Positions 7,201 to 45,540 of a stretch of 57,597 nt of DNA are shown here, piece after piece. A program made the position numbers and the translations under genes. Within the stretch, counting starts at the first letter, position 1. Every line of letters starts with the position of its first letter. The notes beneath the pieces are model-generated. The model saw only the letters and a list, made by a program, of their open reading frames with translations, had not been told where the DNA came from and searched no databases. This DNA is from Prorocentrum cordatum (lineage: Eukaryota): contig CAUYUJ010000014.1 in NCBI GenBank assembly GCA_963575745.1, positions 62,001-119,597 on the forward strand, read 5' to 3'.

Positions 7201-7340
7201 TAATTACTATTATTATTATTATTACGACTCTTACCGCCACTACTACTACTATGCCTCCTTCGTCTTTTTCTTTAATTGCTGTGCTACTACGGCACAAACT
7301 TCTTCTTTTCGAAAGGAGAAGTTTGTGTATTAATTCTTTT

Positions 7341-7391
<51 letters not shown>

Positions 7392-7849
7392 GTACTACTA
7401 CTCGTGCTGCTACTACTACAAAGACTTGTGCTAACTCACTAGCAACACCAACAACTACCACCACGACTACTGCTATTACTACCCCCGCTGCCACTACTAT
7501 TATTATCACTGCTGCTACTACTACTACTACTACTACTACTATTCCTACTACTACTACTACTCGTACTACTCGTGCTAATGCGAGTGCAACTGCTACTGTT
7601 TCTGGGAATGCTGCTGCTACTGCGATGACTGCGGGGGCGACGACTACTACTGGTGCTAGTTCTTCTACTACTAGTACTACGACAACAACAACTACTATTA
7701 CGACTACTACGATTACTGCTACTACTACCACGACTTCTGTCACTACTACTATTATTCCTACTGCGACTAGTGAGACTATGTTGACGATTACTACGACTAC
7801 TACATGCTTAGTTACTCCTTACTTTTACACAGTAGTAGTAATGGTAGTC

Positions 7850-7924
<75 letters not shown>

Positions 7925-7988
7925 ATAGTAATTGTAGTACTAGCGCGTGTAGTAGTAGTAATAGTAGTAGTAGTAGTAGTAGTAGTAA

Positions 7989-8023
<35 letters not shown>

Positions 8024-8027
8024 ATGC

Positions 8028-8063
<36 letters not shown>

Positions 8064-8072
8064 AAATAGTAC

Positions 8073-8109
<37 letters not shown>

Positions 8110-8110
8110 C

Positions 8111-8207
<97 letters not shown>

Positions 8208-8214
8208 AGTAGTC

Positions 8215-8265
<51 letters not shown>

Positions 8266-8606
8266 TATGTAGGTGTAGTCGTAGCAGTCGTAGTTGCAGT
8301 AATAGTAGTAGTAGTAGTAGTAGTAGTACTAATCGTAGAAGTACGACTAGTATTACTTTTAGTACTACTACTACTACTACTACTACTACTTCCCTGCTAC
8401 TACTACCACTGCGACGGCTATTACTACAACAACAGCAAACCATCAACCAGTACTAGCATTCGCAGCCGTATTCGTATTCGTAGTAGTCGTAGCAGCAGTA
8501 GTAGTAGCCGTTGTAGTTGAAGTAGCAGTAGCAGTTGTAGGAGTGAGTATAGTAGTAGTCGTAGGAGAGGGAGTAGTAGTAGGAGAAATAGTAGTGGTAG
8601 CCGTAC

Positions 8607-8653
<47 letters not shown>

Positions 8654-8666
8654 ATAGTAGTAGTAA

Positions 8667-8700
<34 letters not shown>

Positions 8701-8759
8701 CATAGTGGTCGTAGTAGTAGTAGTAGTAGTAGTAGTCGTAGTAGTAGTAGTAGTAGTAA

Positions 8760-8808
<49 letters not shown>

Positions 8809-9027
8809 AGTAGTCGTAGTAGTCGTGATTTAGTAGTAGTAGTCGTAGTAGTAGTAGTAGTAGTAGTAGTAGTCGTCGTTGTAGTCGTAGTCCTAGTAGT
8901 CGTAGTAGTAGTCGTGGTAGTAGCAGTAGTAGTAGTAGTAGCAGTAGTAGTAGTAGTAGTAGTAGTCGTATAGTTAGAGTAGTAGTTAAGTAGTAGTAGT
9001 AGTCGTCGTTATTATTAGTAGTTAGTC

Positions 9028-9059
<32 letters not shown>

Positions 9060-9116
9060 CGGAGTGGGTAGTGTAGTAGTAGTATGAGTAGTAGTTGTCG
9101 TTGTTGTTTTTAGTTT

Positions 9117-9149
<33 letters not shown>

Positions 9150-9552
9150 GAGTGTAGTGTAGTTAAGTAGTAGTAGTTAATAGTAGTAGTAGTAGTAGTA
9201 GAATATAAAGTCGTAGTAGTAGGAGGTAGTCGTAGTAGTGGTAGTAGTAGAAAAAAAAAACACAAAAATAAAACTAGTGAGTAGTAAGTAGGAGTAGTCC
9301 TTGTAGTGTAGTAGTAGAAGTAGTAGTAGTAGTGTAGTAGTAGTAGTGTAGTAGCAATAATAGTAGTAGTACATAAGTGTAGTAGTAGTTAGTAGAGTAG
9401 TCGTTCGTAGTCGGTAGTAGTAGTGTAGTAGTAGTAGTAGGTAGTAGAGTAGTAGTCGTAGTAGCGTAGTAGTGTAGCAGTTAGTAGTAGTAACGTAAGT
9501 AGTATTCGTAGTAGTAGTAGTAGTAGTGCTAGTAGTAGTAGTTGTAGTAGTC

Positions 9553-9606
<54 letters not shown>

Positions 9607-9648
9607 CTAGTAGTAGTAGTAGTATTAGTCGTAGTAGTAGGAGTAGTC

Positions 9649-9691
<43 letters not shown>
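7201..9691. repeat. (CTA)n/(TAG)n microsatellite field with strand switches
   Basis: CTA to about 7830, TAG to about 8340, CTA to about 8440, then TAG to 9691. Confidence 0.95.
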
Positions 9692-9694
<3 letters not shown>

Positions 9695-10044
9695 GTAACG
9701 CCGTGCCCGTCCGGGCCGTGTAGTAGTGAACCGCTGCTCTGAAGATGTGTCGTTGTCTTTGTGTTTCTTTGGCGCTGAAGTTTATGTTTTAGAGGTTTAT
9801 GTGGCCGATGTTGGATCCGAGAACGTAAATTTACCTAAGAGTTCGACATTCGGTTTTCGGTTTTAAATTGCCTCCCGTCCATACAATCGAGCATGATGGA
9901 AGCGAACGCCGTCTCCGTCCGGGCCCGCCGTGCTCGATTCCGGAGATATTGCGTTGCTTTGCATTGGGTTGCTTTGCATTAGTTTGCATTGCTTGCATTC
10001 GGGTTGCTCAATAGATGTCTGCTGAGGTTGCATTGGGAGCTTAC

Positions 10045-10425
10045 ATCATGATGATGATGTTGAAGAAGGTGGTGATAATGATGATGATGATGACGATGAT
10101 GACGATGGTGATGGTGGTGATGGTGGCGACTAGTATGATGACCATGATGCGGATGATGACGATGACGATGATGACGATGATGCTGATGATGCTGATGTAT
10201 GACGATGACGATGATGTTGATTTATTTCGGTGATGATGACGATGACGAAGATGGTGGCGATGATGATGATTATGATGGTGATGGTGATGCTGGTGATGAT
10301 TGTGATGATGCTGGTGATGATCGCGATTCATGACGATGATGGTGGTGATGATGATGACGATGATGAAGATGATGTTGATGATGATCATTATGGTGATGTT
10401 TATGATGATTCTGATAATGACTATG
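10045..10425. repeat. Degenerate (GAT)n microsatellite
   Basis: Directly visible. Confidence 0.9.
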
Positions 10426-10427
10426 AT

Positions 10428-11760
10428 GAGGATTCGGTCGGATTCCTTAGGATTCCTTCGGATTCCTTAGGATTCCTTCGGATTCGCTAGCATTCCTTAG
10501 GATTCCCCTTCGGGTCCGCTCGCGTTCCTTCACCCTTAGGATTCCCTCAGGATTCCTTGGCGCTTATACACTTCAGGGATTCCTGAGGCGCGCAAGCGCG
10601 AACCCGGACGGGAGCGGCGTGCGGTCTGCGCAAGGATCCCTTAGGATTCCAATAGGATTCGCTGAGGATTCGGTACGGTTCCTTAGGATTCCTTAGGATT
10701 CCTTCGGATTCGCTAGGTTTCCCTAGGATTCTTTTCGGATCCGCTAGCATTCCTTCAGGATTCCCTTTATGATTCCCGCAGGATTTCTAGGCGCTTATAC
10801 ACTTCAGGGATTCCTGAGGCGCGCAAGCGCGAACCCGGACGGGAACGGCGTGCGGTCTGCGCAAGGATTCCTTAGGATTCCAAGTGGATTCGCTGAGGAT
10901 TCGGTAGGGTTCCTTAGGATTCCTTCGGATTCGCTAGGTTTCCTTAGGATTCTTTTCGGATTCGCTAGCGTTCCTTTAGGATTCCATTAGGATTCCCTCG
11001 GGATTCCTAGGCGCTTATACACTTCAGGGATTCCTGAGGCGCGCAAGCGCGAACCCGGACGGGAACGGCGTGCGGTCTGCGCAAGGATTCTTTAGGATTC
11101 CAGTAGGATTCGCTGAGGATTCGGTAGGATTCCTTCGGATTCCTTAGGATTTCTTCGGTTTCGCTAGGTTTCCTTAGGATTCCGTTCGGATTCGCTAGCA
11201 TTCCTTCAGGATTCCCTTAGGATCCCCTCAGGATTCCTAGGCGCTTATACATTTCAGGGATTCCTGAGGCGCGCAAGCGCGAACCCGGACGGGAACGGCG
11301 CGCGGTCTGCGCAAGGATTCACTAGGATCCCAATCGGATTCGCTGAGGATTCGGTAGGATTCCTTCGGATTCCTTCGGATTCGCTAGGTTTCCTTACGAA
11401 TCCTGTCGGATTCGCCAGCATTCCTTCAGGATTCCCTTAGGATTCCCCCAGGATTCCTAGGCGCTTATACACTTCAGGGATTCCTGAGGCGCGCAAGCGC
11501 GAACCCGGACGGGAACGGCGTGCGGTCTGCGCAAGGATTCCTTAGGATTCCAGTTGGATTCGCTGAGGATTCGGTAGGATTCCGGAGAATTCCTTTGGAT
11601 TCCTTAGGATTCCGTTCGGATTCGCTAGGTTTCCTTAGGATTCCCTTCGGATTCGCTAGCATGTCAGGATTCCCTTAGGATTCCCCCAGGATTCCTAGGC
11701 GCTTATACAATGCAGGGATTCCTGAGGCGCGCAAGCGCGAACCCGGACGGGCACGGCGTG
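10428..11760. repeat. About 220-240-bp satellite built from GGATTCCTTA-type 10-mers plus a conserved core, about 6 copies
   Basis: GGCGCTTATACA...GCGCGCAAGCGCGAACCCGGACGGG core at about 10559, 10790, 11009, 11240, 11460 and 11698. Confidence 0.9.
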
Positions 11761-11872
11761 GGGCGTGGGACCCGGACGGGCACGGCGTACGGCGTAGGAC
11801 CCGGACGGGCACGGCGCACGGCGTGGGACCCAGACGGGCACGGCGTGGGGCCCGGACGGGCACGGCGTTACC

Positions 11873-12620
<748 letters not shown>

Positions 12621-29055: not shown

Positions 29056-31264
29056 GACCTCCGGGGCTCGAAGCGCAAAGCAAGAGCGGCATATCGTCGG
29101 GGGGCTGAACAAGGAACCCTTCTCGTTGGGGAGGGGCCCCGTGCTCCTCAATTGTTTCGCAGCTTGCCTTAGGTTGTCCTTAGGCCTTCGATGGGGAATC
29201 GAAGTTTAACTTATGGAGCACTTCTTGGAGGTTCGCGCGGATTCCTTGGATCGGCGCTGGGCTCCCCTTGGCGGCGCCTCCGGCGCCGCCCTGGGCGCGA
29301 TCCGCGCGCTCCGCGCGCCGATCCAAGAAACCCGCGCGGACCTCCGAGAAATTATGTGTCTGTCGGTTTTGGTTCCTCTCGGTCGGTATCGTTTAAACGA
29401 TCCCCATCCCCATCCCCATCCCCTTCGAGACCCCACCAAATTACCACCCCAGTTGGGCACACCCCTCGAAGCCCGAAGGGAGCGGCCTATATCCCCATCT
29501 AGGGCTAATCGGCCAGTGGGGCCCAGGCCGCGCCGCTGGGGATGGGGATCGGTTGAACGATACTCACTAGGGGCGGCCCAAGTCATCCCCCGAGCGTTCT
29601 CATAGCAGTGGCAGCACACGTGCGCATGCATGCACACCGATACTGAACCCCGCACGCCAGCGCCCTCCGAATTCGTCCTCGAAGGCCTTCGCGGCGAATG
29701 GCCTTGACGGCGGCCTCGCCTCGAGGTGGGCCCGGGCTCCGAGGGGTCCTCGGCCTGTGGCTGGCGGCAGAGGGCTGGTGTTAAGTCGGGCACGTCCCTC
29801 CACAGGAGGAATATTCAAAAAATAGTCAAAAATAGTCAGGCGACGATTTTTGGTTATTTTTGGATTCTTTCGGAGTGTATTTTGAGTATTGTTTTTTCTC
29901 GCCCCACATCCCCCTGTAGGGGGAGGCGCCCGACCTAAGGTCGGTGGCATGGGTGTGGCTCTCGGCCAGGCGCTTCGGGAAGCTGGCCCGGCCCGTCTCG
30001 TTTCGGAGCCCTGGCGCCGCCGCTGTTTGCCTTCAAGCTGCCCCGAGCTTGTTTTGAGCCTGTTCTTCGAGTGCCTTTTGCCTGCGCCTTTCTTGCCTCT
30101 GACTTGTGTCGAACCTGCCATTGGCTTGCTTCCCGGCTTGCTTTCGGCACGCCAGCATATTCAACTGGCTTGCGCTCGTGGTGTTCCAGCTTGATTTTGG
30201 CTTGCCGGGGGAGGAGGAGGAGGAGGTGGAGGAGGAGGAGGAGGAGGAGGAAGAGGAGGAGGAGGAGGAGGAGGAGGAGGAGGAGGAGGAGGAGGAGGAG
30301 GAGGAGCTGACGTGGTGAACTCAGATCCGCCGAGCTGGTACCTCCTGGCGTAGGCTGGCACGAGCCTCTGCACGTGCCGCATAGCTCGCCGGTGCCACGC
30401 GGGCGAGCGCGATCGCGGCTGCGCGCCTGTCACGAGGCCGCCCCAGAGGGGCCTGGGGGCTGAGGTGTGCGGGCGGCCTGAAGGAGGAGGAGGAGGAGGA
30501 GGAGGAGGAGGAGGAGGAGGAGGAGGAGGAGATACCCGCCCAACGTAAAACAAACAAGAGGAGGCGGAGGAGGAGGAGGAGGAGGAGGAGGAGGAGGAGG
30601 AGGAGCATCGTTGTAATTCGAATAGGATGTCAACAACATAGTGGATGTTGCCCAACGTTTTTTGAGCCGAACCTACGAAATATTACGTATCATGTTCGTA
30701 GATCTGCGACGTATTCTTTCGATGCTTTGACGAAGGTCGTCTCGTCGTCTGTCGTCGATCTTGTACTCGAGCAACGCGCGCGCACGGCCCTCAAGGAGGA
30801 TCCTTCGCAGCCGCCTTGGGCATCACCTGCTGTGGGCTGCATTCCCATAGCGCCGCGGAGTTGTAAGGCACGCTCCAGCTCAGTGCCCTGTGTGAGCTGC
30901 GCCAGTACTGCCGTGCGTCCAGCACACCATACCTCGAAAGCGGCCAGGCCCTCCTCTCCTCCTTCTCCTCATCCTTCCTCCTCCCTCTTACTTCCTCCCT
31001 ACTTTTTAGCCTCCTCTCTCTTCTCTCCTCTCCTCTCTCCTCTTTCTCCTCCTTCTCCTTTTCCTCCTCCTCCTCGTCCCATTCCTCCTCATCCTCCTCT
31101 CCCTCCCCTTCTCCTCCTCCTCCTCCTTCTCCTCCTCATCCTCCTTCTCCTTCTCCTTCTTCTTGTCCTTTTCCTTCTCCTTCTCCTTCTCCTCCCCCTC
31201 CTCCTCCTCCTCTTTATCCTTCTTCTTTTCCCTGCTCCCCCTCCCTTCTCCCTCCTGCTCCTCC

Positions 31265-33070
31265 CACAGGGTCAAAGGCCTAGTACCGGACACCCAGGTG
31301 TGCCCGGCCTGCAGTCTCCCCTTTGGCTCACGCGCCAGTCTCATGCAGCACCTTTGTTTCGACTCTTTCATATGTGCTCTCTACCTCCTCTGCCATTCCC
31401 AACGCCTTCCCCAGGAGCAAATCGCCGCGCTTGCTATGCAACGCTGCGAAAATGCCAAACTACAAGTGAAGTCAGGCGTAGGTCGCTGGCGTGTTGCATT
31501 ACCGGCACATCGTGCCAAGCGTGCTACCACCCAGCACTTTCGTGACTTTGCCAAACACCTGTCGCAAGCGGACGCTCGCGCCATAATGGCGGTTACCGAC
31601 TACGCGCTGGACTCTGCAGCCGTCTCTTTACTTTTTCCCGCCGATGTTCCTCCGCCACAACCTCCTCCTCTTCCTGCGCTGCCTGAATGGCCATTTCAAC
31701 CGAAGGATTATTCTGGTCTAGCGACCAGCGAAATTCCAGCCCGTATCAGGCGCAAGGAAATATTCATTCTCAATCTTTTTTCTGGCCGCAGGCGCGAAGG
31801 GGATATCCAGCATCACCTGGAATCATTCACGCCTGACCCCTCGATAGAGGTACATATACTGTCGGTCGATATTGCTATCGATCCCGACTCAGGCGATCTC
31901 ACCAAGTCGGAGACCATCAAGCTCTGGCAACAACATATTTATGCCGGTAGAGTGGTTGTTTCAGGTGGGGGCCCACCTTGCGAAACCTTTTGCGCGGCCC
32001 GCTGGAAGCCCAACGGACCACCGCCGCTGCGCACTACCGAGCACTACTGGGGCATCCCCAACGCTACGCCCAAGCAATCCCGCCAATTACAGATAGCCAA
32101 CTTGCTACTCGCTTCATTGGTCCTCCTCTTTGCCGCTCATTTGGAAATGGGCACCTCGGCATGGATGGAACATCCATGCCCTGCCCACTGGGAACCCAGG
32201 GCGCAGCCTAGCTGGATATGGAGGCCTTTAATGGCCCTGGCTGCTGCACCGGCGGTCCGCACCACGGACATTGACCAGTGCATGTTTCAGCCGTCTTGCC
32301 GCCCTCCTAACGAATTCGGCAAAGCCCCCACGCGCTTGCTATCGCTCCGCCTTCCCTCGCTCCCAGCGCTCCTAACTAACCGTCCCCAAGGGACCAAGTG
32401 CACGCACCCACGGGGGTCACATCGTACACTTCTAGGTAAGGACGAGAATGACCGCTTTTTCACTGCAGACAAAAAGACCTATCCTTCTGCCCTTTGCGAA
32501 TGTCTCGCCCAGGCTATATACCAGGACGTCATTTTACCATTTGTTGACGACCCACAGGATCCTCCTCCCCAGACGGACCCCTCGGTTCTGGCTCCCCTTC
32601 TCCGCTTCTCCGCATCCATGACCAGCGACTTTTGGCTAGGCCCCGACTTCGTTGATTCCTCCGCCCCTCGCACCCGTGCTAAAGTGGATGGGGAGCTGGA
32701 CCGCTTCCGCAGACTTTTGGCTCTCACCAGGCCCCGCGAGCCGCGGCGCCATAGCGACCTCCCCTCAGAGGCTCACGAGCAGCTTGATCCCGCCGATCAG
32801 GACTCGGAAGCGGAACAAGAGGCCATGCACTTTTTGGGCACAGCCCCCATTTTTCCCTCCACCCTCCCTCCGCCGCCACCCCCGCCCTCCCTAACTCTGG
32901 ATCAGAAAAGGCGCATCCAGTGCAATAGGGAACGGGCCAGACAAATCAGGGCCGAGCGTTCCCGCCAAGCGGCACGCCCCGTCCCGCTCACGGGCATTTC
33001 CCTCTCTCACATGTGGCACCCTGCTTCGCCCGCCCCGCAGGACTTCAACGCCGACATCTTCGACACTTAG
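31265..33070 (+). CDS. C-terminal part of a retroelement polyprotein: zinc finger plus C5 cytosine methyltransferase domain (5'-truncated)
   Basis: CPAC-x12-H finger at about 31301. Motifs in order: LNLFSG (I), SVDI (II), GDLT (III), GGPPCETF (IV, catalytic PC, about 31967-31990), MEHP (VI-like), DQCMF..K.PT (VIII-like), TYPSALC (X-like). The first 34 aa of the tracked ORF are microsatellite. Confidence 0.88.
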   Translation, partial: HRVKGLVPDTQVCPACSLPFGSRASLMQHLCFDSFICALYLLCHSQRLPQEQIAALAMQRCENAKLQVKSGVGRWRVALPAHRAKRATTQHFRDFAKHLSQADARAIMAVTDYALDSAAVSLLFPADVPPPQPPPLPALPEWPFQPKDYSGLATSEIPARIRRKEIFILNLFSGRRREGDIQHHLESFTPDPSIEVHILSVDIAIDPDSGDLTKSETIKLWQQHIYAGRVVVSGGGPPCETFCAARWKPNGPPPLRTTEHYWGIPNATPKQSRQLQIANLLLASLVLLFAAHLEMGTSAWMEHPCPAHWEPRAQPSWIWRPLMALAAAPAVRTTDIDQCMFQPSCRPPNEFGKAPTRLLSLRLPSLPALLTNRPQGTKCTHPRGSHRTLLGKDENDRFFTADKKTYPSALCECLAQAIYQDVILPFVDDPQDPPPQTDPSVLAPLLRFSASMTSDFWLGPDFVDSSAPRTRAKVDGELDRFRRLLALTRPREPRRHSDLPSEAHEQLDPADQDSEAEQEAMHFLGTAPIFPSTLPPPPPPPSLTLDQKRRIQCNRERARQIRAERSRQAARPVPLTGISLSHMWHPASPAPQDFNADIFDT

Positions 33071-33080
33071 CTGGCGTCTC

Positions 33081-34178
33081 ATGTCCAGACGGCCATGGGT
33101 GCTGGTGCCGCGTGAAGCCAGGCCAAAGCATCCCCCACCGGGCCAATTTCGGTCCGCCTCAGCTCCTCCACCCCTACTTTCGCCTGCCCAATTCGCCCAG
33201 GTAGCCAAAGCGGTGCAGCGCTCTCTGTCCAGCACTCCTTCAGCCTCAGATCCCCCGCGGCCGCCTGGCGATTTCAGCGGCCCCCCCATGGGTCGAGGCA
33301 GGCGCATCTACGGGGCCACTTTTCATCCTCCGCCACCTCCGCCCGCCTTGCCTCCCTTGCCGCCCCCAGATCATCCCAGGGTGCCTGCCAAAGCAGCCAT
33401 TCCGGAAGGCTGGATAGGCCAGGCTGCTTCTCCTTTTTCTCCACCCCTTTCAGCGGGCACCTCGCCTCCGCCCCCGCGCGAGCCTCGCAAACAGTCTCGT
33501 AAAGCTGCGCCACACAGGAGCCAGCCGAGCAGGGCTTCTAGTCCCCCAGCATCGCCTAGAAGGCTGGATCAGGTGGACGACGCCTCATATTCCTCTGCCT
33601 CCTCACCATTTCCTCCGCATGACTCTCCAGAGCCGGCGGAACAGTCCGCTGCGCCCCGCGCCTCTGCAACTCGCAAGCGCAAGCAGGTCTCATTTGCGGA
33701 CGAGTTCACGGCCAAATCCCCTAGGGTGGCCTATAATTCGCGCTTACGCACCGAGCCGCGCAAAAGCGCGCTCAAGCAGCCGGCGCCGCTACGCAGAGAA
33801 CCTGCGGAGGCACAAAGCAGCCCGCAGGAGTCCCTCGGCCCGCCGTCACCTCCAGCCTCTCCTCCCCCTAGGCACCATAGGGCTCGCAAGGCCAAGGCGC
33901 ACCGCGCGGCCCATGCAGCTCAGCGCTCACACTCGCCTGCCAAAGCGTCTGATGCAGCCTCGGACGAGCAGCGCAGTACAGTTCTCAAGGAGCACGAGAA
34001 TAGAATTGCCCAGCTCAAAGAGGAGCATAGGCAGGACCAGCTCCGTATCGACAGGATACACAGGGAGCGCCTCAGGCTTCAGTTGCGAGAAGGCGAAAGC
34101 CTTTCGCATTGCGGTCAGCGTCTTTCGCCCAGGAGGCCGCGTAAACCTCATGAAGGAGGTGATGCTGCCAGGCGCTAG
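33081..34178 (+). CDS. Pro/Ser-rich protein with a C-terminal coiled-coil-like segment, function unknown
   Basis: 365-aa ORF starting 10 nt after the methyltransferase stop; segment VLKEHENRIAQLKEEHRQDQLRIDRIHRERL. Confidence 0.6.
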   Translation: MSRRPWVLVPREARPKHPPPGQFRSASAPPPLLSPAQFAQVAKAVQRSLSSTPSASDPPRPPGDFSGPPMGRGRRIYGATFHPPPPPPALPPLPPPDHPRVPAKAAIPEGWIGQAASPFSPPLSAGTSPPPPREPRKQSRKAAPHRSQPSRASSPPASPRRLDQVDDASYSSASSPFPPHDSPEPAEQSAAPRASATRKRKQVSFADEFTAKSPRVAYNSRLRTEPRKSALKQPAPLRREPAEAQSSPQESLGPPSPPASPPPRHHRARKAKAHRAAHAAQRSHSPAKASDAASDEQRSTVLKEHENRIAQLKEEHRQDQLRIDRIHRERLRLQLREGESLSHCGQRLSPRRPRKPHEGGDAARR

Positions 34179-34269
34179 ACCTTTGCCAGGCAGCTAGCCC
34201 TCAGCCTAAGCCTAACCTCTCCCTCTTTCCTCTTATCAGCTCCCTTTTCTGCCTCATCCCCATCGGGCC

Positions 34270-34962
34270 ATGAGGAGCGAGCCCAGTATCCTGGGCAACG
34301 CCGACGCAGACGAGGACATGCCCGCTGCTGAGGCGTACCCGGGACGACACTTAGATCTGCGCAGCATCTCGCCACCAGCCTCTCGTTTGGCTTCCTTATG
34401 GAAGCATTTGGCTGAGCGGCTTCTTTTGGCTCACCAGCAAGTCTACCGCTTTCTCAGCGGCGGCGCGAGGCGCCACGCACTCATTCTGTCTCCCACCACG
34501 GTGTACCAGCATACTGCGGTACCCCAGTGGCAAGCCACATGGCAGCTCGAGAGCGGGCCGCCCGCGTGGCCACACGCGCGCGCTTACGTAGGCCCTGTGC
34601 TTCACCTAGATTTGCCCACGGCCGTTAATCGCACACTCGAGCGCTGGCATGGGCGCTGGCGCGAGGCCAACTCCCCTAACCTACTCCACATTTACCCTCA
34701 ATGTGCAGCGGGGGACGGCCCCTATGATGCCCGTTTCTCACCCACCATAGGGCTAGTTACTGTTTACGTGCCTGATCAGCTTTTTCTGGACCTACTCCAA
34801 TCGGGGGCCTGGGAGCAGTCCTCCCTCATCCCTCATCGTCTTTTGCAGGATGCAGCGGCTGGCAGCCCCATCCTTATAGACTTCCAGGCCATGATCATGG
34901 TTCGGCCATTCTGCCTCCCGTTGTCCTACCTCGCTCGAATCCTCCGTCTCCCCGAACCCTAA
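34270..34962 (+). CDS. Hypothetical protein, 230 aa
   Basis: ATG in GCCATG context, complex globular-like composition, preceded by a pyrimidine tract and AG. Confidence 0.6.
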   Translation: MRSEPSILGNADADEDMPAAEAYPGRHLDLRSISPPASRLASLWKHLAERLLLAHQQVYRFLSGGARRHALILSPTTVYQHTAVPQWQATWQLESGPPAWPHARAYVGPVLHLDLPTAVNRTLERWHGRWREANSPNLLHIYPQCAAGDGPYDARFSPTIGLVTVYVPDQLFLDLLQSGAWEQSSLIPHRLLQDAAAGSPILIDFQAMIMVRPFCLPLSYLARILRLPEP

Positions 34963-34973
34963 TCCCTCAGGCC

Positions 34974-35396
34974 ATGCCGACCCCAGAGGCGCAGCACCTG
35001 CCGCAGTTCGAGCACGGCGACTTCCGCTGCGCCCCCACTGAGGCAGTGCCACCACCGCCTACAGTCGTGCAGTGGCTGGTAGTGATAACGACAGGCCACA
35101 TTTCGCTTTGGTCCCCATTGCCCATCAATGTAGGGCTCCTAATGGAGCAATTCCATGGGCAGGAGACCAGGCTGCCATCCTCTGCGGAAAGGCCGCGCTT
35201 TCTTCACCTCCCTATTCTACAGGAGATTGATGCACGGCCCATCCTATTTGGCACGGGCATACCCTACCGCACCGGCCTTTCGCTGCGGGTCAACATGCGT
35301 AGCGGTAACATCCTCATCCCTATAGACTCCGCACCGGGCCAAGCATGCATCAGTCGGCCCGTCAGGAGGGTCCTCCTCACACAGATGCAAGCATAA
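34974..35396 (+). CDS. Hypothetical protein, 140 aa
   Basis: ATG in GCCATG context 11 nt after the previous stop; complex composition. Confidence 0.55.
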   Translation: MPTPEAQHLPQFEHGDFRCAPTEAVPPPPTVVQWLVVITTGHISLWSPLPINVGLLMEQFHGQETRLPSSAERPRFLHLPILQEIDARPILFGTGIPYRTGLSLRVNMRSGNILIPIDSAPGQACISRPVRRVLLTQMQA

Positions 35397-35494
35397 GCCA
35401 GCTAGGTTTCACTCATATTTGGCCGTTGGCTCATGGGCTACTTCTTTTTGTTCCCTCGGCACTCCCCCCTTCTCTCAGCGCGCCCCGCGCCGCC

Positions 35495-35974
35495 ATGGTG
35501 CCCATGCCTCCCGCGGGCGGTTCCGCAGCGGCCGCGTCGGATGCGGGCGCGGCCGAGGCCAGCAGGGCGTCGCCCAACACGCGGGAGCTCTTCGGCCTCT
35601 CAGGAGACACGTATGCTGGTTCGGCATGGCAGGGCTCCCAATACACGGCCGCCACGCGGGAGTTCAAAAAGTGGTGGCCTTCCACATACCCTGGCGAGTG
35701 GAAGATGCCCAACGGCATGCTCTACCCGTTCGTTTGGAAGCTCAAGTCGCTGGACGTCATCGACGGCCAGGTCGTCGAAACCTGGGACTGGGAGTGGATC
35801 GAGACCCCAGGCCTGGCGACCATCTCTGAGGTGGAGGCCATGCTGCGGGCCCACTGCAACCAGCAGCAGGCTGCCGCGCAAGAGGCCCAGGCGCGAGCGG
35901 CGGCGACAGCGGCAGGTCTCTCGGCGCTCTCGGCTGCCGCCCGCACTCTCAATCCGTCGCCCTTCGGTGCCTGA
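35495..35974 (+). CDS. Hypothetical Trp-rich protein, 159 aa
   Basis: GCCGCCATGG start; GC3-rich codons; core FKKWWPSTYPGEWKMPNGMLYPFVWKLKSLDVIDGQVVETWDWEWIE. Confidence 0.65.
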   Translation: MVPMPPAGGSAAAASDAGAAEASRASPNTRELFGLSGDTYAGSAWQGSQYTAATREFKKWWPSTYPGEWKMPNGMLYPFVWKLKSLDVIDGQVVETWDWEWIETPGLATISEVEAMLRAHCNQQQAAAQEAQARAAATAAGLSALSAAARTLNPSPFGA

Positions 35975-36061
35975 GCGAGCCACATAGAGTGCTGCGCTGC
36001 ATCAGTCAGCGCCCTGCTAGGTCGTCCTAAGCGACCTCGGCGCAACTAGCAGCGCGCCCGC

Positions 36062-36885
36062 TTAGGTGGTGGGCTCGCCTAATACTCTCCTTTTGTCCAT
36101 CTTCCCTATTCTGGTTTCTCTTTACCTCGGCAGCCCACCACCTAAACAGCTGGAGCCATGCCGCTTCAATTCAAGGTCGGTCGAGCCGTCCTGCATAGTT
36201 GAGTAGTAGGCCACGCAAGTCTAGCAGCATCCAGCCTATCCCGACATAGTGCGGCTCAGCAACTTTGAGCAGCCCCGCTAACAGTGAGGCGGCTAAACGC
36301 CGCTCACATATCTCAATTCGCAGACTCGCCACGGCTGAGTCTTCGCGCATAGGTGGTGGGCTAGCACACTTCTCGGATCCTGGTTTATATGCAGCCCACC
36401 ACCTATACAGCCCAAGCCACCACATGAGCCAAACTCTAACAAAGGAGACGCCGCGTCTCCAATTTAAGGTCGGCCGAGCCGACATGCAGCCCGCCGCAGT
36501 GGGTACTTCAGGTACACATTCTCACTGCAACTCTTTCGGCGCCAGTCGGCACCATCTCAGGTCAACATGGGATGGGCGCCCATGGTGCAACCGTCAATGC
36601 GCCACACAGGGGCGGAGCCAGCCTAATACATACCTCGGCAGCCCACCTAGTCACTCTTTTTTCTACCGGCCCCCCCTTGGAGGGCCTGTGCAAGAGTAGC
36701 TGCCAGTCATGGGCGCGACTTCTCACTTTGCCGCACGAGTGCGGCCAACGCGGCACATTTTAGCAGCCTCGCTAAAAAGCGATCGGCTAAGCTCACACAG
36801 CAATTCGCAGACTCGCCGCGGCTGAGTCTCCTAGGTGGTGAGCTGGCTTAATACTCTTGGTTCACCTTGGCAGCTCACTACCTAG
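36062..36885 (+). ncRNA. Repeated structured-RNA hairpin motif (3 clear copies, 1 degenerate)
   Basis: 14-bp stems at 36062-75/36132-45, 36349-62/36393-406 and 36831-44/36872-85, with covarying pairs and G-U wobble. Confidence 0.6.
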
Positions 36886-37944
36886 ACAGTCCTAGCCAGA
36901 CTGCCACGGCCAAACCTAAGCTGTGGCAAGCAAGGACGATGCTACAGCACATCCCCGCCGAGTAACTCTCGGCCAAGGCGGCCAGCGAAGGTGCCATATA
37001 TGCATACAGGCACCATGCCCTAGTGCGTCTTGGCTGTGCGGCTGAGTCAAGGCCGCGGCAAGCATAAGTGCCTCGTGGGAGGACCGCGGCACTGTGCCTC
37101 GGCTTGTCTCTTTGGCCCTCGTCCAGGTGTAGCAGGGTCCCCTTGGTCCCTGTGTGCCTGTGAGGGGCCACGCGGAGGTGGGTCTCTGTTGTCTGGTCTC
37201 GGCTAGCGCCCAGGCACACCCACCTCCCCGTCGCGGACGGCCCGTGCAGGCCTTTCAGCTGCAGCGGCCGCCCTGCAGCACGGCAATGCCATTCTGGCCC
37301 TCCTGCCTCCCCCCGCCTCTTTTGGATTCCCCCGCTCTTCCTCCAGTCCAGCTCTCCTCCCCTGGAGGTTTGGACAGCCGCGCGGCGGCCTGGCCAATTT
37401 GGCCTTCCGTCCAGTTCTTCCCTCTCCTTCAGCCGACCGAAACTTGGACGGCACACCTAGGCAGGTCTCTCCTTTTCCAGCCTTGCACTGCTCTCTGCCT
37501 CGAGGGCTGCCCTGCTATGGGCAACGAAGCAGGGCCCCGCTGATGTCTCTCTTCGCACGGCGCTGCAAACTCCTCCTCTCTCGTATATGATTCCTCTCTT
37601 CCCCTCCCGCAGCGCCAATACCTCTCTCCCGACAGTTTTCGGGACGAGAGCGGAAGCAGCTCAGCGTCCATGCTCTCGGGCTTCTCGCGTGCAGCCTGTG
37701 CCAGTCCTGTTGGCCGCTGCGCTCAAGCTACCTGCAACGAGCTTAGTACAGTCAAGCCCTCCTGCTCCTCCTCCTCCCTTCTCCTCCTCCTCCTCCTCCT
37801 CCTCCTCCTCCTCCCTCCTCCTCCTCCTCCTCCTCCTCCTCCCTCCTCCTCCTCCTCCTCCTCCTCCTTCTCTTTCTTCTCCTCCTCCTCCTCTTTCTTC
37901 TCCTCCTCTGGGCAGTGGAGGTGGGGGGCGGCCTCGGTACCGAG

Positions 37945-38059: not shown

Positions 38060-38109
38060 TGGGGGGCGGCTGGACTCCTCCCTCCTCCCTCTTTCTTCCT
38101 CCTCCTCCT

Positions 38110-40762
<2,653 letters not shown>

Positions 40763-40764
<2 letters not shown>

Positions 40765-43700
40765 GGGTCACACCTGACTTATGGCCGGTGAGGTTTGGGT
40801 TTGGGTTTGGGTTTGGGTTGTGGTTTGGGTTTGGAAACCAATCGTTTTAATGAGTTTTCTATTGGGAACCAATTGTTTGGCTTCGTTTTCTATTGAACAC
40901 CTATGGTCTTTATTCGTTTTCTATTGGGAACCAATGGTTTAAATTAGTTTTCTATTGGGAGCCAATGGTGTTTATTTGTTTTTCATTGGGAACCAATGGT
41001 TTTTATTAGTTTCCGAGTGGAAACAGATTCTTTTTATAGTTTTCTATTGGAAACCAATGGTTTTCATTTGTTCTCTATTGGAAACCAAGGGTTTTCCCCA
41101 ACCCTCCGGCGTTGGGTTCTCGTTTTGAATCGAGCAGTGCTCGCGCGTCGCCTTCCTTACTTCCTTCCTTCCTTCCCGCCCCCTGCCGCCCCTCTCTTCC
41201 CCCTTGCCTTTCGCCTCGCTCGTCGCTGCGTGCCAGCTGGGGGGCTGCGATCTGTGAAAAGGTCGCCACTTTCGAGGCCTGCTGGGAGGCCCAGCACAGT
41301 GGGTACTCACGGCAGACTCAAATGGGACCTCGCCATCCCTGGGGGGCTGCGATCTGTGAAGCTGTTGCCACTTTCGAGGCCTGCTGGGGGGCCCAACGCA
41401 GTTGGTACTCACCGCAGACTCAAATGGGACCTCGCCATCCCTGGGGGGCTGCGATCTGTGAAGCCGTCGCCACTTTCGAAGCCTGCTGGGGGGCCCAGCA
41501 CAGTGGGTACTCACGGCAAACCCAAATGGGACCTCGCCGTCCCTGGGGGGCTGCGATCTGTGAAGCTGTCGCCACTTTCGAGGCCTGCTAGGGGGGCCCA
41601 GCACAGTGGGTACTCACGGCAGACTCAAATGTGACCTCGCCATCCCTGGGGGGCTGCGATCTGTGAAGCTGTCGCCACTTTCGAGGCCTGCTGGGGGGGG
41701 CCCAGCACTGTGGATACTCACGGCAGACTCAAATGGGACTCGCCATCCGTGGGGGCTGCGATCTGTGAAGGTGTCGCCACTTTCGAGGCTTTGCTGGGGG
41801 GCCCAGCGCAGTGGGTACTCACGGCAGACTCAAATGTGACCTCGCCATCCCTGGGGGGCTGCGATATGTGAAGCTGTCGCCACTTTCGAGGCTTGCTGGG
41901 GGGCCCAGCGCAGTGGGTACTCACGGCAGACTCAAATGTGACCTCGCCATCCCTGGGGGGGCTGCGATCTGTGAAGCTGTCGCCACTTTCGAGGCCTGCT
42001 GGGGGGCCCACCGCAGTGGGTACTCACGGCAGACTCAAATGGAACCTCGCCATCCTTGGGGGGCTGCGTTCTGTGAAGCTGTCACCACTTTCGAGGCCTG
42101 CTGGGGGGCCCAGCACAGTTGGTACTCACGGCAGACTCAAATGGGACCTCGCCATCCCTGGGGGGCTGCGATCTGTGAAGCTGTTGCCACTTTCGAGGCT
42201 TGCTGGGGGGCCCAGCACAGTGGGTACTCACGGCAGACTCAAATGGGATCTCGCCATCCCTGGGGGGCTGCGATCTGCGAAACTGTCGCCACTTTCGAGG
42301 CATGCTGGGGGGCCCAGCACAGTGGGTACTCACGGCAGACCCAAATGGGACCTCGCCATCCCTGGGGGGCTGCGATCTGTGAAGCTGTCGCCACTTCGAG
42401 GCCTGCTGGGGGGCCCAGCCCAGTGGGTATTCACTGCAGACTCAAATGGGGCCTCGCCGTCCATGGGGGGCTGCGATCTGTGAAACTGTTGCCACTTTCG
42501 AGGCCTGCTGGGGGGCCCAACACAGTTGGTACTCACCGCAGACTCAAATTAAACCTCGCCATCCTTGGGGGGCTGCGATCTGTGAAACTGTCGCCACTTT
42601 CGAGGGCTGCTGATGGGGCCCAGCACAGTGGGTACCCACCGCAGACTCAGACTAGACCTCGCCATCCCTGGGGGACTGCGATCTGTGAAACTGTCGCCAC
42701 GTTCAAGGCCTGCTGGGGGGCCCAACACAGTGGGTACTCACCGCAGGTTCAAAATGGACATCGCCATTCCTGGGGGGCTGCGATCTGTGAAACTGTCGCC
42801 ACTTTCGAGGCCTGCTAGGGGGGCCCAGCACAGTGGGTACCCACACGCAGATTCAAATTAGACCTCGCCATCCATGGGGGGCTGCGATCTGTGAAGCTGT
42901 CGCCACTTTCGAGGCCTGCTGGGGGGCCCAGCACAGTGACGCCACCCGCAGATTCAAATTAGACATCGCCATCCCTGGGGGGCTGCGATCTGTGAAGCTG
43001 TCGCCACTTTCGAGGCCTGCTTGCGGGGCCCAGCACAGTGACGCCACACGCAAATTCAAATTAGACCTCGCCATCCCTGGGGGGCTGCGATCTGTGAAAC
43101 TGTTGCCACTTTCGAGGGCTGCTGGGGGGGCCAGCACAGTGACGCCACACGCAGATTCAAATTAGACCTCGCCATCCCTGGGGGGCTGCGATCTGTGAAA
43201 CTGTCGCCACTTTCGAGGCTTGCTTGCGGGGCCCAGCGCAGTGACGCCACACGCAGATTCAAATTAGACCTCGCCATCCCTGGGGGGCTGCGATCTGTGA
43301 AACTGTCGCCACGTTCGAGGCCTGCTTGCGGGGCCCATCACAGTGACGCGTCTCAAGTAACTTACACATCAAGCTGATTGTCCATACAAGTTTCGGCCAA
43401 CTCATCGTTTCCATTGATACAAATGGGTCGGGTACGTCACAGGGTAATTATTTGTTTTTGGGAGGCAATGGTTTTACTTAGTTTTCTGTTGGAAACCAAT
43501 GGTTTAATGAGTTTCCATTGGGAACCAATTGTTTCTATTAGCTTTCTATTCGGAACCAATGGTTTTAATTAGCTCTCTATTGGGAACCAATTGTTTCTAT
43601 CAGTTTTCTATGGGAAACCAATGGTTTCTATTAGTCTTCTATTGGCAACCATCAGTTTTTTTATTTATTAGTTTTCCATTGGGAACCAATGGTTTTCATT

Positions 43701-45072: not shown

Positions 45073-45112
<40 letters not shown>

Positions 45113-45114
45113 TA

Positions 45115-45158
<44 letters not shown>

Positions 45159-45283
45159 GACTACTACAACAACAACAACAACTACTACTACTACTACTAC
45201 TACTACGACGACGACTACTACTACTACTCCTCCTGCTGCTGCTGCTACGACTACTACTACTACTACTACTACTACTATTACTG

Positions 45284-45323
<40 letters not shown>

Positions 45324-45354
45324 GACTACTACTACGACTACTACAGCAACCACA

Positions 45355-45419
<65 letters not shown>

Positions 45420-45439
45420 CGCTACTACTACTACTACTG

Positions 45440-45500
<61 letters not shown>

Positions 45501-45540
45501 GACTACTACTACTACTACTACAATTACTACGACTACTACG
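44837..45540. repeat. (CTA)n microsatellite
   Basis: Directly visible. Confidence 0.95.

What the first reader, a model, noticed from the sequence alone, without database searches (positions are those of the whole stretch)
31250..37771. Methyltransferase-bearing retroelement with four extra 3' ORFs
Seen: 15-bp TSD, truncation mid-ORF just before a zinc finger, a complete C5-methyltransferase motif set with catalytic PC, then four same-strand intronless ORFs (gaps 10, 91, 11 and 98 nt) and 1.8 kb of non-coding 3' sequence without a poly(A) tail. Known: Symbiodinium LINE and DIRS elements carry such methyltransferases, and 5' truncation with a long TSD fits target-primed reverse transcription. 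Inference: a LINE-like element with an operon-like multi-gene cargo, an architecture I do not recognise. No reverse transcriptase is present in this copy.
Basis: partly seen in the sequence, partly recalled or inferred. Interest (0 to 1): 0.82.

Follow-up and report, generated by a model that had tools for sequence, protein, structure and literature searches.

The report
Truncated LINE carrying four extra genes
This is a 5'-truncated copy of a many-copy LINE retrotransposon whose reverse-transcriptase protein ends in a divergent cytosine-methyltransferase-like domain and whose RNA also carries four conserved downstream genes of unknown function, a layout not normally seen in LINEs.

Summary
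An exact 15-bp repeat flanks a 6.5-kb insert in a CCT-rich tract. In 4 of 4 public runs, other copies read on upstream of base 31262 into a first zinc finger.

ORF1 has relatives in long proteins with RNase H, APE endonuclease and reverse transcriptase, two fingers, and then this domain at the C-terminus. The domain misses Pfam PF00145 in 0 of 23 proteins scanned. Its model nevertheless matches C5 cytosine methyltransferases best (Z 8.4-10.6), and the PPCE motif is invariant.

The whole insert is a diverged multi-copy repeat. Short contigs bridge four of the five ORF junctions. The downstream ORFs look coding:
- ORF3 and ORF5 have intact relatives at 49-91% identity.
- Listed differences are mostly synonymous.
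- Small indels avoid the ORFs, and larger ones inside them are multiples of three.

No function was found for ORFs 2-5. No full-length copy and no expression data were obtained.

Verdict: a real LINE with a conserved four-gene 3' module, a new variant of a known kind. Its layout differs from SymbioLINE-Dnmt.

The parts
31250..31264 (+). Left copy of the 15-bp target-site duplication. Its last 3 bases (31262-31264) also match other element copies, which is microhomology at the 5' junction.
   Evidence: loose ends begin before 31262 in 4 of 4 runs.
31265..33070 (+). ORF1 remnant. This is the C-terminal 601 residues of the LINE RT polyprotein, cut between its two zinc fingers.
   Evidence: 14 homologues; alignment A1 shows the end of the RT, two fingers and the domain in relatives; 18 of 22 listed differences are synonymous.
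31301..31375 (+). Second zinc finger (CPAC...H...C), the only finger kept in this copy.
31751..32554 (+). Divergent C5-methyltransferase-fold domain. Motifs in this copy: LFSGRRREGD at 31775-31804, GDL at 31892-31900, GGPPCE at 31967-31984 and EHP at 32168-32176.
   Evidence: AF2 model with pLDDT 70 and pTM 0.75; VIA-align top 16 hits are all C5 MTases, Z 8.4-10.6; invariant columns in A2; coordinates checked. No PF00145 hit.
32555..33067 (+). Tail of about 170 residues after the domain. Most relatives lack it.
   Evidence: In the best 150 representatives the match ends within 10 aa of the C-terminus in 100 and within 60 aa in 140. Of the 11 listed differences at 32650-32941, 8 are synonymous.
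33081..34178 (+). ORF2, 365 aa. Pro/Ser/Arg-rich and probably disordered, with a helical heptad-like C-terminal stretch (read by eye).
   Evidence: Variants inside it are in frame: a 63-nt skip and 192-nt duplications (tables 5, 5c). 1 of 1 listed difference is synonymous. Codon use fits ORF1 best in this frame.
34270..34962 (+). ORF3, 230 aa, no known family.
   Evidence: Intact relatives at 91, 73 and 80% identity that all end ...RLPEP or ...RLPDP. 2 of 2 listed differences are synonymous. No Pfam, PHROG, NCBIfam or PDB match.
34974..35396 (+). ORF4, 140 aa, the least supported of the four.
   Evidence: 2 of 3 listed differences are synonymous. Codon-use correlation is 0.45 in frame against 0.17 and 0.40 in the shifted frames. 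Start context GGCCATG. Not searched against the large protein databases.
35495..35974 (+). ORF5, 159 aa. Trp-rich beta domain followed by a long C-terminal helix.
   Evidence: 14 relatives, 12 of them proteins of 135-147 aa at 49-56% identity. Start context GCCGCCATGG. AF2 model pLDDT 62. The one listed variant is a net 33-nt change, in frame.
35975..37756 (+). Non-coding 3' region without a poly(A) tail. Holds an internal 72% direct repeat (36264-36419 and 36758-36898).
   Evidence: 10 of the 12 listed small indels lie here, and 9 of those 10 are not multiples of three. Several large deletions and duplications occur among copies. Repeat found. No significant terminal fold, z -1.64.
37757..37771 (+). 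Right copy of the 15-bp target-site duplication.

Best explanation
Bases 31262/31265-37756 are one 5'-truncated insertion of a multi-copy APE-type LINE. It was made by target-primed reverse transcription into a CCT-rich microsatellite, which left a 12-15-bp target-site duplication.

The family's RNA reads, 5' to 3':
- a long polyprotein: (RNase H)-endonuclease-RT-two zinc fingers-divergent C5-methyltransferase-fold domain-tail;
- four further ORFs on the same strand;
- about 1.8 kb of untranslated sequence without poly(A).

Reverse transcription started at the 3' end and stopped between the two fingers. This copy therefore keeps the finger-2/methyltransferase-like end of ORF1 and all of the 3' module, but has no RT.

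The four downstream ORFs are genuine genes kept by selection in the lineage that spawns copies.

Inferred, not shown:
- The ORFs are translated from the polycistronic element RNA by termination-reinitiation across the 10- and 11-nt spacers, and by internal starts at the good ATG contexts of ORF3 and ORF5.
- They act as accessory RNP or life-cycle proteins.
- The methyltransferase-like domain acts on the element's own cDNA, RNA or target DNA. Its SAM-loop is altered, so catalysis is unproven.
For: **Truncation and duplication**
- An exact 15-mer occurs only at the two boundaries of the insert. About 0.1% of flank position pairs match by chance.
- In 4 of 4 runs, other copies continue upstream of 31262 (table 7). 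Read by eye in ORF1's frame, that upstream sequence gives the end of a first C2H2 finger, like that of relative P0002.

**LINE identity**
- 14 homologues were found.
- The profile search found 1,727 representatives at E<=1e-30. The best 150 all reach into the domain, and the match ends within 60 aa of the C-terminus in 140 of them.
- Of 8 long representatives scanned, 7 hit RVT_1, 2 hit Exo_endo_phos and 3 hit RNase_H, always upstream of the match.

**Methyltransferase fold**
- The top 16 VIA-align hits are C5 cytosine MTases, Z 8.4-10.6, with 176-218 residues aligned. The best generic Rossmann protein scores 8.2.
- S38, G39, D67, G101-P-P-C-E105 and E167-H-P169 are invariant in 13 sequences.

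**One repeated unit**
- All 30 bins of 31230-37790 are covered in 4 of 4 runs. In X1, 605 contig pieces were laid: 132 at 99% or more, 189 at 95-99%, 171 at 90-95% and 113 below 90%.
- Listed contigs bridge ORF1/ORF2 (3 runs), ORF2/ORF3, ORF3/ORF4 and ORF5/3' region (4 runs) (table 8).

**Coding constraint**
- Of the 28 listed differences inside ORFs, 23 are synonymous. ORF1 has 18 of 22 (P=2e-7). ORFs 2-4 have 5 of 6 (P=0.014), against 2 of 6 and 0 of 6 in the shifted frames. The expected synonymous fraction is 0.25-0.32.
- 0 of 12 listed small indels lie inside ORFs, although ORFs make up 72% of the element.
- 4 of 4 listed larger variants inside ORFs are multiples of three, against 1 of 8 outside them.
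- ORF3 and ORF5 have intact diverged relatives.
- Codon use matches ORF1 best in each proposed frame.
Against: - No contig spans the whole element, and no full-length copy of this family was seen (one search says so).
- The ORF4/ORF5 junction is not bridged by any of the 32 listed pieces; 2,081 pieces were not shown.
- Only 40 of 1,086 differences, 12 of 95 small indels and 24 of 135 loose ends were listed, chosen by support. The counts are therefore a selected sample.
- The runs may include the sample the window came from.
- ORF2 and ORF4 were not searched for homologues.
- No family, fold or function was found for ORFs 2-5.
- PF00145 is not matched. Three arginines sit in the loop that binds SAM in canonical enzymes, so the domain may not methylate anything.
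- The flanks are low-complexity, so a chance 15-mer is unlikely but not impossible.
- Long open frames are common in this GC-rich DNA.
Confidence: 0.7

Rival explanations
1. 3' transduction or template switching. A LINE master copy picked up a stretch of host or other-element genes behind its own 3' end. The cargo rides along passively, and the apparent constraint reflects its recent origin from functional genes rather than a role in the element.
For: ORF5 has 12 relatives of 135-147 aa at 49-56% identity that appear as stand-alone small proteins on short contigs; these could be cellular genes. In most relatives the RT polyprotein ends right after the domain, so the 3' module is an addition.
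Against: Differences between diverged copies are biased to synonymous sites, and indels inside the ORFs stay in frame. That points to selection while the ORFs were carried in the element lineage. Spacers of 10-11 nt between intronless ORFs are unlike ordinary nuclear genes. No listed loose end marks an older 3' end just after ORF1, though only 24 of 135 were listed. This rival concerns origin and is compatible with the present structure.
Confidence: 0.15
2. Composite of separate repeats. A LINE fragment lies next to one or more other repeat families, and the 15-bp repeat is a chance match within (CCT)n.
For: Both flanks are CCT-rich and share many 15-mers. No contig spans the whole unit, and depth varies about six-fold along it in X1.
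Against: The exact 15-mer with its TGC interruption occurs only at the two boundaries. The 5' boundary is confirmed independently. Contigs at about 97% identity bridge the ORF1/ORF2 junction in 3 runs, and no listed loose end falls there. Codon use is alike across the ORFs.
Confidence: 0.1
3. ORFs 2-5 are chance open frames in C-rich, GC-rich DNA, that is, a long non-coding 3' UTR.
For: The window has 69 open frames of 150 or more codons. Shuffles reach 501 codons. No ORF matches any family.
Against: ORF3 and ORF5 have intact relatives down to 73% and 49% identity with the same ends. The synonymous bias appears only in the proposed frames. Indels are in frame inside the ORFs but frame-breaking in the true 3' UTR.
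Confidence: 0.05

Closest known systems
SymbioLINE-Dnmt (Symbiodinium LINEs encoding a DNMT; de Mendoza et al. 2018, PMC5890265; passages read)
   Same: An APE/RT LINE that carries a cytosine-methyltransferase-type domain. It has target-site duplications and no poly(A) tail.
   Different: There the DNMT is in an ORF1 upstream of the RT ORF and is named from Pfam searches. Here the domain follows the RT and two fingers in the same ORF and misses PF00145. It is also followed by four more ORFs.
Canonical APE-type LINEs (L1-like, bicistronic)
   Same: Endonuclease plus RT polyprotein in relatives. 5' truncation and a target-site duplication with junction microhomology. Polycistronic RNA.
   Different: Accessory ORFs in known LINEs lie upstream of the RT ORF (recalled; passages of PMC5408684 place the esterase ORF1 of CR1, RTEX and ZfL2 in that upstream position). 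Here four ORFs lie downstream, and the RT ORF ends in a methyltransferase fold.
Terminons and ORF3-bearing LTR elements of bdelloid rotifers (PMC5408684; passages read)
   Same: Retroelements that have gathered several extra ORFs around an RT core.
   Different: Those use Penelope-like or LTR-type RTs. The ORFs named in the passages read include GDSL esterase, DEDDy exonuclease, env-like, coiled-coil and transmembrane ORFs. Here the core is an APE LINE and the ORFs match no family.
C5 cytosine methyltransferases (DNMT3A/B, M.HhaI, Dnmt2, DNMT1)
   Same: Best structural matches, Z 8.4-10.6. There is a Pro-Cys motif after strand 4, a Glu after strand 5, F-x-G after strand 1 and an acidic residue after strand 2. 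Motif names are recalled.
   Different: No sequence-level match. The loop is GRRRxGD instead of GxGG, the next motif is EHP instead of ENV, and there is no QxRxR. The region where a target-recognition domain would sit is short.

Membership tests
Non-LTR (LINE) retrotransposon, APE type | LINE-type reverse transcriptase | tested here: inconclusive
   Absent from this truncated copy. It is present upstream of the same finger/domain module in relatives: 7 of 8 long representatives hit RVT_1 at E<=0.001, 3 of them at or above Pfam's cut-off. No full-length copy of this exact family was obtained.
Non-LTR (LINE) retrotransposon, APE type | Apurinic-like endonuclease N-terminal to the RT | tested here: inconclusive
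   Exo_endo_phos matched in 2 of 8 long relatives scanned. It cannot be present in this copy.
Non-LTR (LINE) retrotransposon, APE type | Target-site duplication flanking the insert | tested here: met
   An exact 15-mer lies at both ends and occurs only twice in the window. The chance rate is about 0.1% per pair of positions.
Non-LTR (LINE) retrotransposon, APE type | 5' truncation relative to other copies that share the 3' part | tested here: met
   Loose ends lie before 31262 in 4 of 4 runs and carry a consistent upstream sequence.
C5 cytosine methyltransferase (Pfam DNA_methylase, PF00145) | Match to the family profile | tested here: not met
   No PF00145 hit in 0 of 15 members of A1 at E<=0.1, 0 of 8 long relatives and the window ORF at E<=1. 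Sequence searches of the PDB also gave no DNMT.
C5 cytosine methyltransferase (Pfam DNA_methylase, PF00145) | C5-MTase fold | tested here: met
   The top 16 of 48,161 chains are C5 MTases, Z 8.4-10.6, covering model residues 28-295. Foldseek alone was weak, E about 1e-2. Model pLDDT is 70.
C5 cytosine methyltransferase (Pfam DNA_methylase, PF00145) | Catalytic Pro-Cys (motif IV) | tested here: met
   G101-P-P-C-E105 is invariant in 13 sequences. It lies at window 31970-31984.
C5 cytosine methyltransferase (Pfam DNA_methylase, PF00145) | SAM-binding FxGxG loop and ENV / QxRxR motifs | tested here: inconclusive
   The F-S-G and the Glu of EHP are kept. The loop reads GRRRxGD, and no QxRxR is present.
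C5 cytosine methyltransferase (Pfam DNA_methylase, PF00145) | Methyl transfer to cytosine | not testable with these tools
   Needs an enzyme assay.
SymbioLINE-Dnmt | DNMT encoded in an ORF1 upstream of the EN/RT ORF2 | tested here: not met
   Here and in relatives the domain is at the C-terminus of the RT-bearing protein. The definition comes from PMC5890265.
Terminon / Penelope-like multi-ORF retroelement | Penelope-like (Athena) RT core | tested here: inconclusive
   Relatives have Exo_endo_phos plus RVT_1 in a single polyprotein, as in LINEs. No RT phylogeny was made.

The most novel reading that the evidence does not exclude
A LINE lineage has grown into a five-gene polycistronic retroelement. 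It encodes an RT polyprotein ending in a methyltransferase fold, plus four accessory proteins kept by selection. That would be a LINE counterpart of the multi-ORF complexity so far seen in Penelope-like Terminons and LTR elements.

In addition, the C-terminal finger-plus-DNMT-fold module defines a very large clade of methyltransferase-type LINEs (1,727 representative proteins at E<=1e-30). Surveys that find DNMTs through Pfam could not detect this clade.
Probability: 0.45. Interest if true: 0.8.

Novelty: new variant of a known kind. Interest (0 to 1): 0.62.

Why it matters
LINEs are thought of as one- or two-gene elements whose accessory gene sits upstream of the RT. A family that keeps four more genes downstream would widen what a LINE can carry, if selection on those genes is confirmed. 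It would also raise the question of how a eukaryotic cell translates them from one RNA.

The methyltransferase-fold domain at the end of the RT protein is widespread but invisible to the Pfam DNMT profile. The count of retroelements that carry DNA- or RNA-modifying modules may therefore be considerably too low. That bears on how transposons deal with host methylation.

Tried and rejected
**Own genome and earlier findings**
- Own-genome search: no genome is held.
- Earlier findings of this scan: nothing by place or by sequence.

**DNA of other copies or relatives**
- Metagenome contigs with ORF3: none.
- Metagenome contigs with ORF5: one weak 30% match, L001, on an AT-rich contig, not in an ORF of 70 aa or more. 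Judged unrelated.
- Viral contigs with ORF5, the ORF1 domain and ORF3: none.
- Prokaryote genome contigs with the ORF1 domain and ORF5: none.
- Other copies inside the window: none.

**Function of ORFs 2-5**
- Pfam, PHROGs and NCBIfam: nothing.
- PDB by sequence: nothing below E 0.5.
- ESM Atlas for ORF3 and ORF5: no usable hit.
- ORF5 model fold search: only single-helix matches, Z 5.7 or less.
- ORF5 self-association (three copies): no verdict.

**Expression**
- No RNA holder was listed among the sequencing runs.

**Host clues and element features**
- A 15-base piece of the dinoflagellate spliced leader, recalled from memory: 0 matches at up to 2 mismatches.
- Rfam: 0 matches.
- 39 other long open frames in the window: no Pfam hit.
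- 3'-terminal RNA structure: not significant, z -1.64.
- CpG depletion of the element: not seen, 0.81 against 0.80 in the left flank.

**Literature**
- Full-text searches and passages of four papers gave no description of a LINE with a C-terminal DNMT-fold domain or with ORFs downstream of the RT ORF.
- This is not proof that none exists. Repbase and subscription journals were not searchable.

Full report
**1. What is in the sequence**

The window is GC-rich (about 60-65% outside simple repeats) and full of trinucleotide tracts.

Between 31265 and 37756 lies 6.5 kb of complex sequence set in a CCT-rich tract. The 15-mer CCCTCCTGCTCCTCC stands directly before it (31250-31264) and directly after it (37757-37771). 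These are the only exact copies in the window.

Both flanks are CCT-rich, so I measured how often such a match arises by chance. Of 81,796 pairs of positions in the two 300-nt flanks, 100 share a 15-mer. That is about 0.1% for a given pair of boundaries.

Five same-strand ORFs follow, with spacers of 10, 91, 11 and 98 nt. After them come 1,782 nt without long conserved frames or a poly(A) tail.

ORF length by itself means little here. The window has 69 open frames of 150 or more codons. Shuffled sequence of 33071-36000 gave open stretches of up to 501 codons.

**2. ORF1 is the tail of a LINE polyprotein**

ORF1 has 14 database relatives, the best at 42% identity. In the alignment, the longer relatives show this order:
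- the end of a LINE-type RT (xVDD, then GLxLNxxKTE);
- two zinc fingers;
- a conserved domain of about 300 residues.

A profile search of 1.84 billion representatives found 23,160 proteins at E<=1e-3 and 1,727 at E<=1e-30. The lower figure is the safer one, because the profile also includes fingers.

Among the best 150, 71 are 1,400 residues or longer. The match ends within 10 residues of the C-terminus in 100 and within 60 in 140.

Of 8 long representatives scanned, 7 hit RVT_1, 2 hit Exo_endo_phos and 3 hit RNase_H, all upstream of the matched part.

The family architecture is therefore (RNase H)-APE-RT-two fingers-domain. The window copy starts just before finger 2.

**3. The truncation is real**

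Contigs of four public runs were laid on 31230-37790 at 80% likeness or more.

In all four runs, contigs match from 31262 onward and carry a shared, different sequence before it (table 7). I read that sequence by eye in ORF1's frame, not with a tool. It gives the histidine-bearing end of a first C2H2 finger and closely resembles the corresponding stretch of relative P0002 in alignment A1.

Other copies therefore continue upstream into the polyprotein, while this copy stops there and abuts the 15-mer. The last three bases of the left 15-mer also match the other copies. That is junction microhomology, which is common at truncated LINE insertions (recalled).

**4. The methyltransferase-like domain**

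No Pfam family matched the window ORF at E<=1. PF00145 was hit by 0 of 15 aligned members and 0 of 8 long relatives. Sequence searches of the PDB found only zinc fingers.

An AlphaFold2 model built from a 13-sequence alignment has pLDDT 70 and pTM 0.75. Foldseek gave only weak matches at E about 1e-2, among them Dnmt2, DIM2, MET1, DNMT1 and DNMT3A, with the cap 2'-O-methyltransferase CMTR1 ranked first.

The all-against-all structural search was clearer. The top 16 of 48,161 chains are all C5 cytosine methyltransferases:
- They include DNMT3B and DNMT3A (Z 10.6), a prophage enzyme (10.1) and M.HhaI (9.9), followed by DIM2, MET1, M.MpeI, Dnmt2, DNMT1, DNMT5 and ZMET2.
- They align over 176-218 residues, spanning model residues 28-295.
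- The best generic Rossmann protein scores 8.2.

The invariant residues fall where the classical motifs lie (motif names are recalled):

| Position in fold | This family | Classical motif |
|---|---|---|
| End of strand 1 | F-S-G | I |
| End of strand 2 | Asp | II |
| Next loop | G-D-L | III |
| After strand 4 | G-P-P-C-E | IV |
| After strand 5 | E-H-P | VI |

There are clear departures. The glycine loop reads GRRRxGD, ENV is EHP, and no QxRxR is present. I therefore call it a divergent C5-methyltransferase fold with the catalytic Pro-Cys. I do not call it a demonstrated methyltransferase or a PF00145 member.

**5. The whole 6.5 kb is one repeated unit**

All 30 bins of the stretch are covered in 4 of 4 runs. 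In run X1, 605 contig pieces were laid: 132 at 99% or more, 189 at 95-99%, 171 at 90-95% and 113 below 90%. This is the picture of many diverged copies.

Listed pieces bridge these junctions:
- ORF1/ORF2 in three runs (for example 32827-33307 with 16 differences);
- ORF2/ORF3 (34011-34288);
- ORF3/ORF4 (34432-35017);
- ORF5/3' region in four runs.

None of the 32 listed pieces bridges ORF4/ORF5, and 2,081 pieces were not shown. No piece spans the whole element. Linkage is thus shown piecewise, not end to end.

**6. The downstream ORFs look coding**

*Homologues.* ORF3 has three intact relatives at 91, 73 and 80% identity. All end ...RLPEP or ...RLPDP, and their indels are in frame. ORF5 has 14 relatives: one at 91%, one at 76%, and twelve proteins of 135-147 aa at 49-56% identity. 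They share 37 invariant positions, many of them tryptophans. These relatives fix the ORF5 start at the ATG of 35495, in the context GCCGCCATGG.

*Substitutions.* One search printed 40 of 1,086 differences, and 28 of those lie in ORFs. Of the 28, 23 are synonymous: ORF1 18 of 22, ORF2 1 of 1, ORF3 2 of 2 and ORF4 2 of 3. With the observed mutation spectrum, the expected synonymous share is 0.25-0.32. This gives P=2e-7 for ORF1 and P=0.014 for ORFs 2-4. In the two wrong frames the ORF2-4 count falls to 2 of 6 and 0 of 6.

*Indels.* None of the 12 listed small indels lies inside an ORF, although ORFs make up 72% of the element. Two are in the ORF1/ORF2 spacer. Ten are in the 3' region, and nine of those ten are not multiples of three. 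The four listed larger variants inside ORFs are all multiples of three: 63, 192, 166+26 and 35-2 nt. Of the eight outside ORFs, one is (tables 4, 5, 5c).

*Codon use.* Each ORF correlates best with ORF1 in its proposed frame.

These are selected samples and small numbers for ORF2 and ORF4. ORF4 is the weakest case.

**7. What the ORFs do**

This is unknown. Nothing matched in Pfam, PHROGs, NCBIfam, the PDB by sequence or the ESM Atlas.
- ORF2 is Pro/Ser/Arg-rich with a heptad-like helical end (by eye).
- ORF5 is modelled at moderate confidence (pLDDT 62) as a five-stranded sheet followed by a long helix. The fold search matched only the helix.

My working inference is that they are accessory proteins of the element's RNP or life cycle. 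I propose translation from the element RNA by reinitiation across the 10-11-nt spacers and from the good start contexts of ORF3 and ORF5. Translational coupling is known for bicistronic LINEs (recalled). None of this is shown.

**8. Comparison with what is known**

SymbioLINE-Dnmt elements have target-site duplications, lack poly(A) and carry a DNMT. In them the DNMT is in an ORF1 upstream of the EN/RT ORF (PMC5890265, passages including the legend of Fig. 1e).

A 2026 preprint names the earlier TE-borne DNMTs as SymbioDIRS-DNMT3, SymbioLINE-DNMT and streptophyte Gypsy-DNMT3, and distinguishes its own new EpiLTR DNMT module from them (10.64898/2026.05.21.726589, passages). None of these has the layout seen here.

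Multi-ORF retroelements are known among LTR elements and the Penelope-like Terminons of bdelloid rotifers (PMC5408684, passages). In LINEs the extra ORF, for example the esterase, lies upstream.

My searches found no description of a LINE with downstream ORFs or with a C-terminal DNMT-fold domain. Repbase and subscription journals could not be searched. Supplements were not opened.

**9. Verdict**

This is a truncated copy of a real, multi-copy LINE with a conserved four-ORF 3' module and a divergent methyltransferase-fold end. It is a new variant of a known kind.

The main gaps are:
- no full-length copy;
- no end-to-end linkage;
- no expression data;
- no function for the four ORFs;
- no host identity.

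On the last point, a spliced-leader relic search and Rfam were blank. The holders include runs labelled marine metagenome.

Noticed in passing
window 7250-12480, 38100-40850 and 45100-45540: Kilobase-long imperfect trinucleotide tracts. They are G-rich on the + strand at 8-10 kb and C-rich (ACC-type, reading as Thr or Ser runs) at 38-41 kb and 45 kb. Together they form inverted-repeat arms of up to 377 nt at 83-90% complementarity. The LINE insert lies just upstream of one of them.
   Followed up: no
window 12028-12127: A run of 100 N, which is a scaffold gap, inside the G-rich repeat tract.
   Followed up: no
window 36264-36419 and 36758-36898: An internal direct repeat of about 150 nt at 72% identity in the element's 3' region. 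Copies in the runs differ here by deletions of 488-612 nt and a 724-nt back-join.
   Followed up: partly
proteins P0168-P0179 (relatives of ORF5, window 35495-35974): A family of small Trp-rich proteins of 135-147 aa (motifs KWWP, PNG.xYPF, W.W.WIE) with no Pfam match. They are predicted on short contigs. Whether they are cellular genes or parts of related elements is open.
   Followed up: partly
whole window outside 31265-37756: 39 other long open frames gave no Pfam hit, and the window has no Rfam match. Apart from the LINE copy, no recognisable gene was found in 57.6 kb.
   Followed up: partly
window 33071-33080: Some copies in runs X1 and X5 carry two extra C in the 10-nt spacer between ORF1 and ORF2 (table 4). 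The spacer length is therefore not fixed.
   Followed up: no
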